Part shown: one piece after another, positions 1,009 through 2,668 of the stretch
How the letters are laid out: each line of letters begins with the position of its first letter
Position numbering within the stretch: position 1 is the first letter of the stretch
Source of the DNA: a virus
Virus record (IMG/VR): IMGVR_UViG_3300028786_000001
Span: 1-61,492 of that record
Reading direction: 5' to 3' (one strand)
DNA length: 61,492 bases
Program-made: the position numbers and the translations under genes
Notes under the pieces: model-generated
Seen by the model: only the letters and a program-made list of their open reading frames with translations
Databases searched by the model: none
Told to the model about the DNA's origin: nothing

Positions 1009-1081
1009 TACAGGGAAAAAGCGAAGCGGGTAATTGTTAAACACCTAAAGTTTGAAGTAACCGCTTCTATAGCCACTGTAA
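1009..1081 (-). ncRNA. Y-RNA-like array unit G (non-tRNA module)
   Basis: Outer stem UACAG/CUGUA, conserved GGCUAU opposite UUUUUCC, inner stem GAAGCGG/CCGCUUC, then UUACUUC and a ~30-nt AU-rich loop. Confidence 0.65.
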
Positions 1082-1088
1082 TAAAGTA

Positions 1089-1154
1089 TGCAGGGAAAAA
1101 ACTGATACCGGGATATTTCGTGACAGGAAGTACCGGTATCTATAGCCACTGCAA
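1089..1154 (-). ncRNA. Y-RNA-like array unit H (minimal unit, stem only)
   Basis: Outer stem UGCAG/CUGCA, GGCUAU opposite UUUUUUCC, perfect 8-bp inner stem GAUACCGG/CCGGUAUC. UACUUC can pair with GAAAUA (one C.A mismatch) around the 7-nt loop CUGUCAC. Confidence 0.65.
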
Positions 1155-1162
1155 TAAACTTA

Positions 1163-1238
1163 GGAGTGTGATAACCCTTCCGAACCATAAACAGGCCAAT
1201 GTTTATATTACCCGGAGTCATGGCCGTATCACTGCTCC
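1163..1238 (-). ncRNA. unassigned 76-nt structured element
   Basis: Ends pair as GGAG/CUCC plus GUGAUA/UAUCAC; internal GGCCA/UGGCC helix; GGUUCGGAA T-loop-like string without a T stem. No array motif and no tRNA cloverleaf. Confidence 0.3.
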
Positions 1239-1250
1239 CTTGTTAAGTTT

Positions 1251-1302
1251 GGTTAGAGGGTAGTTCTTAGGTAATCAGCGACTACCGGAACATCCTCTAA
1301 CC
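1251..1302 (-). other. long RNA hairpin directly 3' of tRNA-Gln
   Basis: GGUUAGAG/CUCUAACC (8 bp) plus GGUAGU/ACUACC (6 bp), separated by an 8-nt asymmetric bulge. Confidence 0.4.
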
Positions 1303-1305
1303 TTG

Positions 1306-1377
1306 TTGTCTGACTTAGATTCGAACTAAGACTAATAGAACCAAAATCTACTGTGTTAACCGTTACACTATCAGACA
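1306..1377 (-). tRNA. tRNA-Gln (anticodon UUG), canonical order
   Basis: UGUCUGA-UA-GUGU-AACGGUUA-ACAC-A-GUAGA-UUUUGGU-UCUAU-UAGU-CUUAG-UUCGAAU-CUAAG-UCAGACA-A. Perfect 7-bp acceptor with U1-A72 as in bacterial tRNA-Gln. CCA is not encoded. Confidence 0.85.
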
Positions 1378-1386
1378 GTTTTCGAA

Positions 1387-1410
1387 CCTAGTGGAAGTCA
1401 TTCCACTAGG
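1387..1410 (-). other. perfect 10-bp hairpin 5' of tRNA-Gln
   Basis: CCUAGUGGAA-UGAC-UUCCACUAGG; overlaps the 3' end of the 1409..1484 element by 2 nt. Confidence 0.5.
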
Positions 1411-1484
1411 GTCTTCGTCAAGTATCTTCTAATCGCGTACTTCAGGCATTACACTCTCGGAAGTGACTAACTTCGTCGGACCCC
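1409..1484 (-). ncRNA. candidate classical Y RNA (Ro-binding core motif)
   Basis: 5' end GGGGUCCGA and 3' end CUUGACGAAGACCC. GGG/CCC, then G-C, U-A, C-G, a bulged C, G.U and A-U reproduce the GGUCCGA/CUUGAC helix of vertebrate Y RNAs. The ~53-nt interior has a GAAGU/ACUUC hairpin. Confidence 0.5.
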
Positions 1485-1563
1485 TTACTAATCTGATTAA
1501 AAGGGCTTTTACGCTTTCTCGCAATTCCTTTATAGATTTTAACCTAAAAGTAGTATGCAATTG

Positions 1564-1634
1564 CACGATCTAATGGATTCGAACCACTATAGGCAGGTTT
1601 GGAATCTGCTGTACTACCGTTGTACGAAGATCGC
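1564..1634 (-). tRNA. tRNA-Trp (anticodon CCA), canonical order
   Basis: GCGAUCU-UC-GUAC-AACGGUA-GUAC-A-GCAGA-UUCCAAA-CCUGC-CUAU-AGUGG-UUCGAAU-CCAUU-AGAUCGU-G. Has G1.U72 and A31.C39 non-canonical pairs and discriminator G as in bacterial tRNA-Trp. Confidence 0.8.
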
Positions 1635-1646
1635 ATAATAAAATAA

Positions 1647-1729
1647 GGTAGTGGCCCAGCACTTGCCTTTTGGCATTCGCGGTTTCTCTGCTGTGCATCG
1701 CCTTTACTCTGCCGCTTACAGATACTACC
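1647..1729 (-). ncRNA. unassigned 83-nt structured element
   Basis: Ends pair GGUAGU/ACUACC; internal GCGG/CCGC and UGCC-AAAA-GGCA hairpins. No T loop or D loop, and no array motif. Confidence 0.3.
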
Positions 1730-1738
1730 TATAAAAAA

Positions 1739-1849
1739 TTACAGAAGGAAACTGATTTGTGTCATACTGATTTAACAGCGTCTATCTTTGAAGGGGTCTT
1801 TTACGACGATAGCAATCCCCGGAGTAACACAAATTCTAACTGTCTGTAA
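1739..1849 (-). ncRNA. possible degenerate ninth array unit (I)
   Basis: Outer UUACAGA/UCUGUAA, UGCUAU motif, inner GUCGUA/UAUGAC, 3' UUUCC. A 27-nt insertion containing GUUACUCC lies between the outer stem and the motif. Confidence 0.3.
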
Positions 1850-1854
1850 AAAAC

Positions 1855-1985
1855 TTACGGGGTAAAGTCTATGCAAGTACATATCTTTTGGATATGGCGT
1901 ACGGGATTGAACCGTATCGACGACAGGAAGCCTAATTTTCGTAGGCTACTGTTAACCGAAGTAACTCACATAATAGCCGCCGTAA
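1855..1985 (-). ncRNA. Y-RNA-like array unit A' with a partial permuted tRNA mimic
   Basis: Outer UUACGG/CCGUAA, inner AUGUGAG/CUUGCAU (two G.U). Module: 6-bp hairpin with loop CGAAAAU, T arm UACGG-UUCAAUC-CCGUA, loop-closed acceptor-like stem CAUAUC-CAAAA-GAUAUG. No D arm. Confidence 0.65.
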
Positions 1986-1991
1986 AAAAAC

Positions 1992-2127
1992 TTTAGAGGG
2001 AAAAAGCGCATCGGGTATTTTCGTGCTCTACCAACTGAGCTAACTGCCCATTTTCATGAGTAGTGAAGGACTCGAACCTCCGACCCGTCATTACAATTGA
2101 AGTAACCGATACAATAGCCGCTCTAAA
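1992..2127 (-). ncRNA. Y-RNA-like array unit B with a permuted tRNA mimic (YrlA-type)
   Basis: Outer UUUAGAG/CUCUAAA, inner GUAUCGG/CCGAUGC. T arm GGAGG-UUCGAGU-CCUUC, acceptor ACUACUCA-UGAAAA-UGGGCAGU (one A.C), UA, D arm GCUC-AGUUGGUA-GAGC. Confidence 0.75.
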
Positions 2128-2131
2128 TAAG

Positions 2132-2262
2132 TTTGCAAGGAAAAGGTGTACAGGAAATTTTCGCGTGCTAACCACTACACTACTAATCCTAAGATTAGAC
2201 CGGATTCGAACCGATGATTCGTCAGCCTGGATTGAAGTAACCCATACGATAGCCATTGCAAA
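2132..2262 (-). ncRNA. Y-RNA-like array unit C with a permuted tRNA mimic
   Basis: Outer UUUGCAA/UUGCAAA, inner GUAUGGG/CCUGUAC (two G.U). T arm AUCGG-UUCGAAU-CCGGU, acceptor CUAAUC-UUAG-GAUUAG, UA, D arm GUGU-AGUGGUUA-GCAC. Confidence 0.75.
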
Positions 2263-2269
2263 TAAAGTA

Positions 2270-2413
2270 TACGGGAGAAAAAGCGTACGCGTATAGCCGT
2301 TAAGCAAATCTTTTGCTCTACCAACTGAGCTACATCCCGATAGCTGTCGGGATGCGTGGGATCGAACCACGGACCCAAAGAGGGGAAGTAACGCATACAA
2401 TAGCAACCCGTAA
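2270..2413 (-). ncRNA. Y-RNA-like array unit D with a permuted tRNA mimic
   Basis: Outer UACGGG/CCCGUA, inner GUAUGCG/CGCGUAC. Anticodon-stem equivalent UCUUU/AAAGA, variable loop GGGUC, T arm CGUGG-UUCGAUC-CCACG, acceptor CAUCCCGA-CAGCUA-UCGGGAUG, UA, D arm GCUC-AGUUGGUA-GAGC. Confidence 0.8.
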
Positions 2414-2420
2414 TAAGATA

Positions 2421-2542
2421 TGCAGGAGAAAAGTAAAATCAGTGATTGCCCTACCAATTGGGCGACGATACCGCAAGGATATCGACAAGGTTCGAACTTG
2501 CAATTTCTGAGTAGAAGTAACTGACTTAATAGCAACCTGCAA
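2421..2542 (-). ncRNA. Y-RNA-like array unit E with a permuted tRNA mimic
   Basis: Outer UGCAGG/CCUGCA, inner AAGUCAG/CUGAUUU. T arm GCAAG-UUCGAAC-CUUGU, acceptor CGAUAUC-CUUGC-GGUAUCG, UC, D arm GCCC-AAUUGGUA-GGGC. Confidence 0.75.
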
Positions 2543-2549
2543 TAAAGTA

Positions 2550-2668
2550 TACAAGGGAAAAATTAAATCAGTATAGTTTGTCCTTTCCGGGGCCAGTTAT
2601 CACCTGACCGGATTGGCAACGCGTACGATGTGACACGATGAAGTAACTGACTTGATAGCCGCTTGTAA
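2550..2668 (-). ncRNA. Y-RNA-like array unit F (non-tRNA module)
   Basis: Outer UACAAG/CUUGUA, inner AAGUCAG/CUGAUUU. The module contains a GGUCAG-GUGAUAA-CUGGCC hairpin and no T or D loops. Confidence 0.65.

What the first reader, a model, noticed from the sequence alone, without database searches (positions are those of the whole stretch)
1009..2668. Tandem array of at least eight stem-closed small RNAs with an invariant internal loop and unit-specific compensatory stems, directly upstream of rsr
On the minus strand this region is a head-to-tail series of units joined by 4-10 nt AU-rich linkers (consensus AUACUUUAUU). All units share one skeleton. The 5' side reads [outer stem 5-7 nt]-N-(G/U)GCUAU-N-[inner stem 7-8 nt]-(U)UACUUC, followed by a variable module. 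The 3' side reads [inner stem']-N2-3-UUUUUC(C/U)-[outer stem']. Stems, given as outer then inner: F 2550-2668 UACAAG/CUUGUA, AAGUCAG/CUGAUUU. E 2421-2542 UGCAGG/CCUGCA, AAGUCAG/CUGAUUU. D 2270-2413 UACGGG/CCCGUA, GUAUGCG/CGCGUAC. C 2132-2262 UUUGCAA/UUGCAAA, GUAUGGG/CCUGUAC. B 1992-2127 UUUAGAG/CUCUAAA, GUAUCGG/CCGAUGC. A' 1855-1985 UUACGG/CCGUAA, AUGUGAG/CUUGCAU. H 1089-1154 UGCAG/CUGCA, GAUACCGG/CCGGUAUC. G 1009-1081 UACAG/CUGUA, GAAGCGG/CCGCUUC. The stem sequences differ between units but stay complementary (Watson-Crick or G.U) within each unit. The nucleotides between the two stems are almost invariant. That pattern is what a family of RNAs sharing one protein-binding internal loop would show. 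A long helix made by the 5' and 3' ends plus a variable effector module is the Y RNA layout, and the gene for the Y-RNA-binding protein Ro60/Rsr starts about 100 nt downstream. From memory, bacterial rsr loci carry one or two Y RNAs; eight or nine different ones in series in a virus would be unusual.
Basis: partly seen in the sequence, partly recalled or inferred. Interest (0 to 1): 0.95.

Follow-up and report, generated by a model that had tools for sequence, protein, structure and literature searches.

The report
Nine-unit Y RNA array beside phage Ro60
A 61-kb bacteriophage carries nine different small Y-type RNA genes and two tRNA genes in one block just upstream of its Ro60 (Rsr) gene, which is the largest such block in about 160 related loci and belongs to a common Y RNA family that the standard RNA database does not detect.

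Summary
All eight units sit on the minus strand at the stated coordinates. I found a ninth, more diverged unit at 1739-1849. The shared signature occurs 8 times in the window against 0.08 expected by chance.

Each unit folds with an outer and an inner stem around near-invariant loops. The stems change in a compensating way, both between units and between related loci. Units E, D, C and B carry a permuted tRNA-like module (T arm, acceptor-like stem, D arm), which is the YrlA design. They match Rfam YrlA only below threshold (22-30 bits; cut-off 69).

The gene 108 nt downstream is a 496-aa Ro60/Rsr. The window is a complete circular tailed-phage genome.

Among 136 related rsr loci with enough upstream sequence, from phages and bacteria, blocks of 1-6 such units are usual. 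They often sit with tRNA genes. None reaches Rfam's threshold.

Best reading: one processed transcript yields nine Rsr-binding Y RNAs with different effector modules. Y RNAs next to rsr are already known, including in phages. The new points are the number of units, the diversity of modules, the variant binding motif and the size of the family. RNA expression and Rsr binding were not tested.

The parts
2669..2765 (-). Candidate promoter and leader of the array. It contains a Bacteroidota-type -7 box, TAAATTTG (2738-2731), a leader hairpin, and the invariant AGTTCTTTGA (2687-2678) just before unit F.
   Evidence: The block is conserved with relatives L295 and L173 and partly with L172. AGTTCTTTGA is invariant in all four. 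The promoter assignment is my inference from the TAnnTTTG consensus, recalled from memory.
2550..2668 (-). Y unit F, 119 nt. Stems UACAAG/CUUGUA and AAGUCAG/CUGAUUU. The module is not tRNA-like.
   Evidence: (R1 model, 50.3 bits). The start of the module (AUCGUGUCACAUCGUA) is conserved in the first unit of L295.
2421..2542 (-). Y unit E, 122 nt. The module is T arm, acceptor-like stem and D arm (YrlA type).
   Evidence: Rfam YrlA match over the full model length, 22.4 bits. R1 model 45.4 bits..
2270..2413 (-). Y unit D, 144 nt, YrlA-type module.
   Evidence: Rfam YrlA 29.7 bits, E 7e-4, covering T arm, acceptor-like stem and D arm..
2132..2262 (-). Y unit C, 131 nt, YrlA-type module.
   Evidence: Rfam YrlA 23.9 bits..
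1992..2127 (-). Y unit B, 136 nt, YrlA-type module.
   Evidence: Rfam YrlA match over the full model length, 27.2 bits. R1 model 53 bits. Counterparts in L295, L173 and L172 have different but complementary outer stems.
1854..1986 (-). Y unit A', 133 nt. The module has a T-arm-like hairpin (ACGGUUCAAUCCCGU) and a second hairpin, but no D arm.
   Evidence: z -3.2.
1739..1849 (-). Ninth Y unit 'A', 111 nt, not in the finding. It has diverged loops (CAGUUAGA ... UACUCC ... CAGUUUCCU). These resemble the CAGUGA/CAGUAA and UACUCC variants seen in relatives.
   Evidence: score 42, as high as the other units. The fold keeps both stems. Variants in relatives.
1636..1738 (-). Stem-closed RNA without the Y signature (UAGGUAGU/ACUACCUU).
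   Evidence: z -1.4, weak. Function unknown.
1563..1634 (-). tRNA-Trp (CCA) inside the array.
   Evidence: ARAGORN. Rfam tRNA 53.7 bits.
1378..1480 (-). Structured spacer RNA with a strong hairpin (CCUAGUGGAAUGACUUCCACUAGG).
   Evidence: z -3.3.
1305..1377 (-). tRNA-Gln (UUG) inside the array. It sits in the same relative position as tRNA-Gln(UUG) in L173.
   Evidence: (64.1 bits).
1156..1304 (-). Two very stable hairpins without the Y signature.
   Evidence: -53.3 kcal/mol, z -4.3.
1089..1154 (-). Short Y unit H, 66 nt, with a 15-nt module.
   Evidence: 48.9 bits; z -3.1.
1009..1081 (-). Short Y unit G, 73 nt, with a 24-nt module. It matches the last unit before rsr in L173 and L295.
   Evidence: (61.3 bits).
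940..966 (-). Intrinsic-terminator-like hairpin followed by a U tract, between the array and rsr. A sigma-70-like promoter match overlaps it (952-925).
   Evidence: Reading the sequences shows a terminator at the same place in L001, L173 and L295.
1..900 (-). rsr (Ro60/TROVE) gene, N-terminal 300 codons. The ATG is at 900.
   Evidence: Pfam TROVE 1.4e-14.
60775..61492 (-). The rest of rsr, reached across the circular junction. Window positions 1-127 equal 61366-61492. The full product is 496 aa.
   Evidence: The identical 496-aa protein is in the database with precomputed TROVE and vWA_Ro60 annotation.

Best explanation
The region is a non-coding RNA operon of a tailed phage.

Transcription is inferred to start at a conserved promoter and leader near 2740-2670. 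It runs down the minus strand through seven Y RNA genes, two tRNA genes with other structured spacers, and two short Y RNA genes. It ends mostly at the terminator at 966-940. Some read-through, or a weak promoter, then feeds rsr.

The linkers between units are only 4-10 nt. The units therefore cannot be separate transcription units and must be cut out of one precursor. The enzymes are probably those that mature the embedded tRNAs, such as RNase P, RNase Z and exonucleases (inferred).

Each mature RNA of 65-145 nt has a closing stem made by its 5' and 3' ends. That stem presents the conserved 5' strand GGCUAU opposite UUUUUCC, with an inner stem and UUACUUC above it. GGCUAU occupies the place of the GNCGAA Ro60-binding motif of YrlA. 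Phage Rsr would bind this shared platform (inferred from the family, not tested).

The variable module would then act as the effector end. There are four permuted tRNA mimics, one T-arm-only module and four unrelated modules. One Rsr ring could thus be coupled to several different partners or substrates. Candidates are host PNPase or other exoribonucleases, and enzymes that recognise the tRNA elbow. The effect would be to redirect host RNA turnover, tRNA surveillance or anti-defence during infection (speculative).
For: Shown here.
- The nine-unit skeleton is present and far above chance.
- Both stems covary.
- The T arm, acceptor-like stem and D arm are in YrlA order, with 25 of 30 covarying pairs across six loci. 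The Rfam YrlA alignments are sub-threshold.
- Rsr lies 108 nt downstream on the same strand.
- There is a single terminator, at the end of the array.
- The order leader, Y units, tRNAs, short Y unit, terminator, rsr is kept in L173 and L295, whose Rsr is 58-59% identical.
- Across all 172 loci scanned (window included), the 5' half-site occurs at 0.86 per kb upstream of rsr on the same strand, against 0.17 per kb elsewhere.
- In the 162 non-redundant related loci, 59% of those sites close into both stems, against 3.6% of control sites.

From the literature.
- YrlA RNAs lie within 4 kb of rsr on the same strand, carry a tRNA-like domain and bind Rsr (PMC4201824).
- Phage phiLo Ro60 binds two upstream Y-like RNAs and forms a complex with host PNPase in vitro (PMC12135203).
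- A Ro60-like protein of phage Bas63, encoded next to tRNA genes, counters the ppl defence system (bioRxiv 10.1101/2024.10.10.617714).
Against: - There are no expression, processing or binding data.
- The strict GNCGAA motif is absent; GGCUAU shares 3 of its 5 specified positions.
- No unit reaches the Rfam YrlA gathering score (best 29.7, cut-off 69).
- Five of the nine units lack a full tRNA-like module.
- The phage encodes no PNPase, RtcB or RNA ligase that would point to a partner.
- One IMG/VR stretch, L264, has a similar-looking array with no rsr in the 2.1 kb held downstream.
- My unit counts in relatives come from a home-made scanner that undercounts. It found 3 of the 6 units visible by eye in L001.
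Confidence: 0.75

Rival explanations
1. The units are tRNA-derived cassettes or decoys that act without Rsr. They could be degenerate or permuted tRNA genes in a phage tRNA cluster. The flanking stems would then be processing or stabilising elements, and the RNAs would serve as decoys or substrates for tRNA-targeting host nucleases or tRNA enzymes.
For: - The modules of E, D, C and B are tRNA-like.
- True tRNAs are embedded in the array.
- Relatives carry 11-27 tRNA genes at the same place.
- Some relatives enclose a nearly complete cloverleaf inside the stem: L105 3810-3885 at 47.6 bits and L173 3373-3442 at 42.3 bits.
- L264 has a similar array with no rsr in the stretch held.
Against: - Four units (F, A, H, G) have no tRNA-like part, yet they keep the same loops and stems.
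- The conserved loops align to the Ro60-binding part of YrlA.
- The skeleton is strongly enriched upstream of rsr on the same strand in the loci scanned.
- The permuted order with no anticodon arm rules out decoding.
Confidence: 0.12
2. The array is not cut into separate RNAs. It would work as one long multi-site RNA of about 1.8 kb that binds many Rsr rings, as a scaffold or sponge. Alternatively it would act as a cis-regulatory leader that sets rsr expression through the terminator.
For: - The linkers are very short and there is one promoter and one terminator.
- A terminator between array and rsr recurs in L001, L173 and L295. That would fit feedback control by read-through.
Against: - Embedded tRNAs must be excised to work, so the precursor is cut at least there.
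- Known bacterial and phage Y RNAs are discrete RNAs of 65-150 nt (PMC4201824, PMC12135203).
- Each unit has its own closing stem, which is what defined 5' and 3' ends would give.
Confidence: 0.08
3. The repeats act at the DNA level, for example as iterons, an origin of replication or recombination sites. Alternatively the region codes for protein, since a 180-aa ORF spans 1993-2535.
For: The region is repetitive, and mechanical ORFs exist on both strands.
Against: - The stems keep complementarity while their sequences change. This is an RNA-level signature.
- The overlapping ORFs have no Pfam hit.
- The corresponding gaps in L172 and L295 have no called genes.
Confidence: 0.02

Closest known systems
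YrlA (Rfam RF02553; Salmonella, Mycobacterium, mycobacteriophages; Chen et al. 2014, PMC4201824)
   Same: - Encoded next to rsr on the same strand.
- The 5' and 3' ends pair into a stem whose 5' strand is conserved.
- The effector module is a permuted tRNA mimic with T arm, acceptor-like stem and D arm (units E, D, C, B).
   Different: - The 5' motif is GGCUAU or UGCUAU, not GNCGAA.
- An invariant UUACUUC follows the inner stem.
- Rfam scores are 22-30 bits against a cut-off of 69.
- There are nine genes in one block, whereas the 2014 survey found 355 YrlAs in 276 genomes, about 1.3 per genome.
YrlB of Salmonella and Yrn1/Yrn2 of Deinococcus radiodurans (Y RNAs without a full tRNA-like domain)
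   Same: - They pair a Ro-binding stem with a small or partial module.
- Units H and G are short in this way, and A' has a T arm only; YrlB also has a T arm (PMC4201824).
- D. radiodurans has four small RNAs upstream of rsr.
   Different: There is no detectable sequence similarity. Here the short units share exactly the same loops as the long ones and belong to the same polycistronic block.
Yrl1 and Yrl2 with Ro60 of Thermus phage phiLo (PMC12135203)
   Same: - The Y-like RNAs are phage-encoded and lie just upstream of a phage Ro60.
- phiLo Ro60 is the nearest solved structure to this Rsr.
- Binding to Ro60 and to host PNPase was shown in vitro.
   Different: - phiLo has two RNAs, found through the CGAA motif.
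- The paper's text does not mention a tRNA-like module.
- This phage has nine RNAs, a different motif and embedded tRNAs.
Phage tRNA gene clusters
   Same: - Tandem, closely spaced, co-oriented small RNA genes processed from a common precursor.
- True tRNAs are interleaved here, and large tRNA arrays sit at the same place in relatives.
   Different: The nine units are not tRNAs. They have no anticodon arm, their order is permuted, and neither ARAGORN nor Rfam tRNA calls them.

Membership tests
YrlA (Rfam RF02553; Chen et al. 2014) | Encoded within about 4 kb of an rsr/Ro60 gene, on the same strand | tested here: met
   The units lie 108-1768 nt upstream of the rsr ATG (900) on the minus strand.
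YrlA (Rfam RF02553; Chen et al. 2014) | Long stem formed by pairing of the 5' and 3' ends | tested here: met
   All units fold this way. The stems covary.
YrlA (Rfam RF02553; Chen et al. 2014) | Conserved 5'-strand motif GNCGAA(N0-1)G, the putative Ro60 site | tested here: not met
   The units have GGCUAUNG or UGCUAUUG at the aligned position, sharing 3 of the first 5 specified bases. Relative L001 has GGCGAU and GGCGAC, which are closer.
YrlA (Rfam RF02553; Chen et al. 2014) | tRNA-like effector domain in the order T arm, acceptor-like stem, D arm | tested here: met
   Met for units E, D, C and B (Rfam partial alignments). RNAalifold on 11 units, including D, C and B, gives 16 of 30 pairs in these three arms, most with compensatory changes. 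Not met for F, A', A, H and G.
YrlA (Rfam RF02553; Chen et al. 2014) | Score at or above the Rfam gathering threshold (69 bits) | tested here: not met
   The best score is 29.7 bits. There is no YrlA hit at gathering in the window or in 13 related loci.
YrlA (Rfam RF02553; Chen et al. 2014) | Bound by Rsr in vivo and carrying tRNA-type modifications | not testable with these tools
   This needs immunoprecipitation, EMSA and modification mapping.
Y RNA in the broad sense (Ro60-associated modular non-coding RNA) | A Ro60 orthologue is present in the same genome | tested here: met
   Pfam TROVE on the N-terminal 300 aa. The same 496-aa sequence in the database carries precomputed TROVE and vWA_Ro60 annotation. 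PDB 9KOP/9L5Y at about 1e-25.
Y RNA in the broad sense (Ro60-associated modular non-coding RNA) | Length of roughly 65-150 nt, with a terminal stem bearing a conserved partly unpaired region plus a variable module | tested here: met
   The unit lengths are 66-144 nt, with shared loops and variable modules.
Y RNA in the broad sense (Ro60-associated modular non-coding RNA) | Physical association with Ro60 | not testable with these tools
tRNA genes | Cloverleaf with an anticodon arm, detected by ARAGORN or the Rfam tRNA model | tested here: not met
   Only tRNA-Trp and tRNA-Gln are called. The single weak tRNA hit (22.9 bits) joins the D arm of unit C to the T arm of unit B across a unit boundary.

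The most novel reading that the evidence does not exclude
This phage, and a large and so far unannotated clade of phage and bacterial rsr loci, may encode a diversified set of Y RNAs. In that reading, one Ro60 ring is programmed by up to nine alternative adaptor RNAs made together with tRNAs. The adaptors would be permuted tRNA mimics, T-arm-only RNAs, RNAs with unrelated modules and, in relatives, whole cloverleaves held in a Y stem. Each would direct Rsr, and host nucleases recruited through it, to a different RNA class or partner. For the phage, the purpose would be to take over host RNA decay or to neutralise tRNA- or RNA-targeting defence.
Probability: 0.3. Interest if true: 0.8.

Novelty: new variant of a known kind. 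Interest (0 to 1): 0.62.

Why it matters
Y RNAs are thought to work as adaptors that couple Ro60 to effector proteins. What the variable module recognises is still largely open, and only a few bacterial and phage Y RNAs have been studied.

A compact phage operon with nine Y RNAs offers a natural comparison set. All nine share one Ro60 platform but carry at least three kinds of module. Each module could be tested for the partner or substrate it binds.

The survey adds three points:
- A whole clade of rsr loci, in Bacteroidota, Verrucomicrobiota and relatives of cyanobacteria and in their phages, carries such blocks.
- These blocks are missed by Rfam and by searches based on the CGAA motif.
- They are habitually linked to tRNA gene clusters. 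This bears on the proposed origin of YrlA from dimeric tRNA transcripts and on a possible role of phage Ro60 in tRNA-related conflicts with the host.

Tried and rejected
- **Covariance model R1.** I built it from trimmed units. With default filters it finds five units at full length. It truncates or misses units with modules longer than about 85 nt. With filters off it only sees the short units. I did not use it for counting.
- **RNA duplex folding.** I tried it to close stems flexibly. It picked spurious long pairings through the AU-rich linkers, so I dropped it.
- **RNAalifold on 12 short units**. It predicted nothing, because MAFFT did not keep the stems in register. The same method worked on the tRNA-like units.
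- **Exact-pattern scan of IMG/VR** with GGCTAT-N7-GTTACTTC. Most of the 119 stretches look like chance matches. Only L266 combined a Y-type closure at the match with an rsr gene. L264 also looks like a real array but has no rsr in the stretch held. The test has little power.
- **DNA search of GenBank phages**. Only the tRNA-Gln matched.
- **The simplest 5' signature**. It was not specific, so I replaced it.
- **Partner enzymes.** I looked for RtcB, RNA ligase and PNPase in 40 ORFs across the genome, including every ORF of 250 aa or more, and found none.
- **Literature.** Five full-text searches found no description of large Y RNA arrays. The 2020 Annual Review on bacterial Ro60 was not held, so I cannot rule out a mention there.
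- **Rejected readings.** I rejected protein-coding and DNA-repeat explanations.

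
Full report
**What is in the sequence**

The window is a circular contig of 61,365 bp with a 127-bp terminal overlap. It encodes large and small terminase subunits, portal, major head protein, DNA polymerase, primase-helicase, endolysin and two sigma-factor-like proteins. It is therefore a complete tailed-phage genome. It comes from an ENA metagenome assembly. 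GenBank phages hold no close relative.

On the minus strand an ORF starts at 900, crosses the junction and ends at 60775. Its 496-aa product has a TROVE domain, and the same sequence in the database carries precomputed TROVE and vWA_Ro60 annotation. The nearest solved structure is Ro60 of Thermus phage phiLo, at E about 1e-25. This gene is rsr.

**Checking the observation**

All eight units are where the finding says.

- The signature KGCTAT-N7-GTTACTTC, with up to 1 mismatch, occurs 8 times, only on the minus strand at 1009-2668. Chance predicts 0.08.
- Every unit folds with the proposed outer and inner stems, in both the minimum-energy and the centroid structure.
- My scanner anchors on UACUUC and demands two closing stems. 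It recovers all eight and adds a ninth at 1739-1849. That unit has diverged loops of a type common in relatives.
- In a hand-registered alignment of 14 units, all 12 stem pairs change on both sides. 96.4% of cells pair, against 37-50% when the partner columns are slid. I trimmed this alignment with the structure in mind, so it is not an independent test.

The array has two parts, seven units at 2668-1739 and two at 1154-1009. Between them lie tRNA-Trp, tRNA-Gln and three structured segments without the Y signature. One terminator-like hairpin (966-940) separates unit G from rsr.

**What the units are**

In E-value mode, Rfam gives YrlA matches for D (29.7 bits), B (27.2), C (23.9) and E (22.4). 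The B and E matches span the whole model. All four are far below the gathering score of 69. The alignments place a T arm, an acceptor-like stem and a D arm in YrlA order. They also put GGCUAU where the model has GNCGAA.

The strongest independent evidence is. A plain MAFFT alignment of 11 tRNA-like units was folded with RNAalifold. Three units came from the window and eight from five relatives. The program predicted the outer stem, two GG:CC pairs, the inner stem, the T arm, the acceptor-like stem and the D arm. Of 30 pairs, 25 are kept through changes on both sides.

The other units differ in their modules:
- A' has only a T-arm-like hairpin and a second hairpin.
- F and A have unrelated modules.
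- H and G have modules of 15 and 24 nt.

**Relatives**

Searches with Rsr brought in 160 further loci from IMG/VR and from GTDB genomes, on top of 11 from single-protein searches.

*Architecture in the closest relatives.* L173, L295 and L172 have Rsr 57-59% identical to the window's. L173 and L295 show the same order: conserved leader, a run of Y units, tRNAs and other RNA, a short Y unit, terminator, rsr. L172 has four units in its gene-free stretch upstream of rsr. Counterparts of unit B keep the inner stem (GUAUCGG; its partner is CCGAUGC in the window and L173 and CCGAUAC in L295) but have three different, each complementary, outer stems. More distant loci use other 5' motifs: GGCGAU/C (L001), GGCGUAG (L002), GGCAAU (L173) and CAGUGA (Verrucomicrobiota and others). 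All use the same UACUUC and a U-rich, C-ended 3' strand.

*Enrichment.* Across all 172 loci scanned (the window included), the 5' half-site occurs at 0.86 per kb upstream of rsr on the same strand, against 0.17 per kb elsewhere. In the 162 non-redundant related loci, 59% of the upstream sites close into both stems, against 3.6% on the opposite strand.

*Unit counts.* These are strict counts and therefore lower bounds:

| Set | Loci | Median | Maximum |
|---|---|---|---|
| Viral (IMG/VR) | 73 | 1 | 6 |
| Genome (GTDB) | 56 | 2 | 5 |
| This window | 1 | - | 9 |

By eye, the next largest array (L079) has about 7 units and L001 has 6.

*Rfam.* None of 13 related loci has a YrlA hit at gathering.

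*tRNA linkage.* tRNA genes sit beside or inside these arrays, up to 27 in a row.

**How it most likely works**

The following is shown here:
- nine stem-closed units with shared loops;
- covarying stems;
- YrlA-type modules in four units;
- rsr immediately downstream;
- a single terminator;
- a conserved operon layout.

The following is inferred:
- One precursor is transcribed from the conserved leader. A TAAATTTG box fits the Bacteroidota -7 consensus as I recall it.
- That precursor is cut into unit-length RNAs together with the tRNAs, since 4-10 nt linkers leave no room for promoters.
- Rsr binds the shared GGCUAU/UUUUUCC platform.
- The variable modules couple Rsr to different partners.

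Known work makes this plausible. YrlA RNAs bind Rsr and are handled by tRNA enzymes (PMC4201824). Phage phiLo Ro60 binds two upstream Y-like RNAs and joins host PNPase in vitro (PMC12135203). A Ro60-like protein of phage Bas63, encoded next to tRNA genes, counters a defence system (bioRxiv 10.1101/2024.10.10.617714).

The role of the invariant UUACUUC is unknown. It could be a second protein contact. The phage encodes no obvious partner enzyme, so any partner would come from the host.

**Rivals**

- The units could be tRNA-derived decoys that act without Rsr. This is possible for the tRNA-like units, but it does not explain why the four non-tRNA units keep the same platform.
- The array could act as an uncut scaffold or leader. 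This is possible but unlikely, given the embedded tRNAs and what is known of Y RNAs.
- DNA-level repeats or protein coding do not fit the compensatory changes.

**Comparison and novelty**

These RNAs work like YrlA, YrlB and Y RNAs in general. They do not qualify as Rfam YrlA members, because both the motif and the score fail. I file them as a divergent Y RNA lineage.

Y RNAs next to rsr are known, including in phages, and so are loci with two to four of them. The new points are:
- nine different units in one phage operon;
- interleaved tRNAs;
- a variant binding motif with an extra invariant UUACUUC;
- a large family of arrays that current annotation does not detect.

Five full-text searches found no description of such arrays. 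One key review was not available to me.

**Verdict**

It is a new variant of a known kind. Interest is moderate to high (0.62), not exceptional.

Noticed in passing
window 1-127 and 61366-61492: The two ends of the window are identical over 127 bp. The contig is therefore a circular or terminally redundant genome of 61,365 bp, and rsr runs across the junction.
   Followed up: yes
window 3504-3523, 5766-5785, 9577-9596, 7841-7860; half-site 2678-2687: A 20-bp palindrome, TTGTCAAAGTTCTTTGACAA, occurs three times exactly and once with one mismatch, in short stretches between the longer ORFs of the early region. Its half, AGTTCTTTGA, lies just before the first Y unit. That half-site is invariant at the same place in L295, L173 and L172, and it also occurs in L264. 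It looks like an operator or promoter element shared by the array and early genes.
   Followed up: partly
window 1156-1304, 1378-1480, 1636-1738 (minus strand): These are structured RNA segments inside the array that lack the Y signature. The first holds two very stable hairpins (z -4.3), the second a strong hairpin (z -3.3), and the third is a stem-closed segment (z -1.4). Their nature is unknown.
   Followed up: partly
L105 3778-3914; L173 3344-3474; L174 4497-4619: In some relatives the Y-type closing stems enclose a nearly complete, non-permuted cloverleaf. Rfam tRNA scores are 47.6, 42.3 and 30.4 bits. ARAGORN draws a cloverleaf for the first two but finds nothing in L174. In L105 the anticodon loop has 8 nt.
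   Followed up: partly
L048, L057, L060, L105, L152, L170, L136, L002 (upstream of rsr): Runs of 4 to 27 tRNA genes lie directly upstream of rsr on the same strand, beside or between Y units. This holds in several viral contigs and in contigs binned into bacterial genomes. In L002 protein-coding genes lie between the tRNAs.
   Followed up: partly
L264 3560-4260: This IMG/VR stretch has four GGCTAT-N7-GTTACTTC sites with T-arm-bearing modules and the AGTTCTTTGA motif. There is no rsr in the 2.1 kb held downstream. Its last part reads like a tRNA body with a Y-type element in place of the anticodon arm. Whether rsr lies elsewhere on that contig is unknown.
   Followed up: partly
window 3720-4181, 4777-5277, 5784-6305 (minus strand): Two sigma-factor-like ORFs and a cpYpsA (SLOG) family ORF lie just upstream of the array on the same strand.
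   Followed up: no
window about 975-995; L295 about 1730-1745; L173 about 4635-4650: A short shared element, GAAGG(A/G)U, lies between the last short Y unit and the terminator in three related phages. I saw it by eye only.
   Followed up: no
window 925-966 (minus strand): A sigma-70-like promoter match (CTGACA, 16 nt, TATAAT; 11 of 12 positions) overlaps the terminator hairpin just upstream of rsr. It may be fortuitous, since the host appears to be a Bacteroidota member with a different promoter consensus.
   Followed up: no
GenBank phages: Ninety-eight GenBank phage records encode an Rsr homologue. They include about 20 Bacteroides (crAss-like) phages and Xanthomonas, Vibrio and Brevundimonas phages. 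Many are annotated only as hypothetical protein. Their upstream regions were not examined for Y RNA arrays.
   Followed up: no
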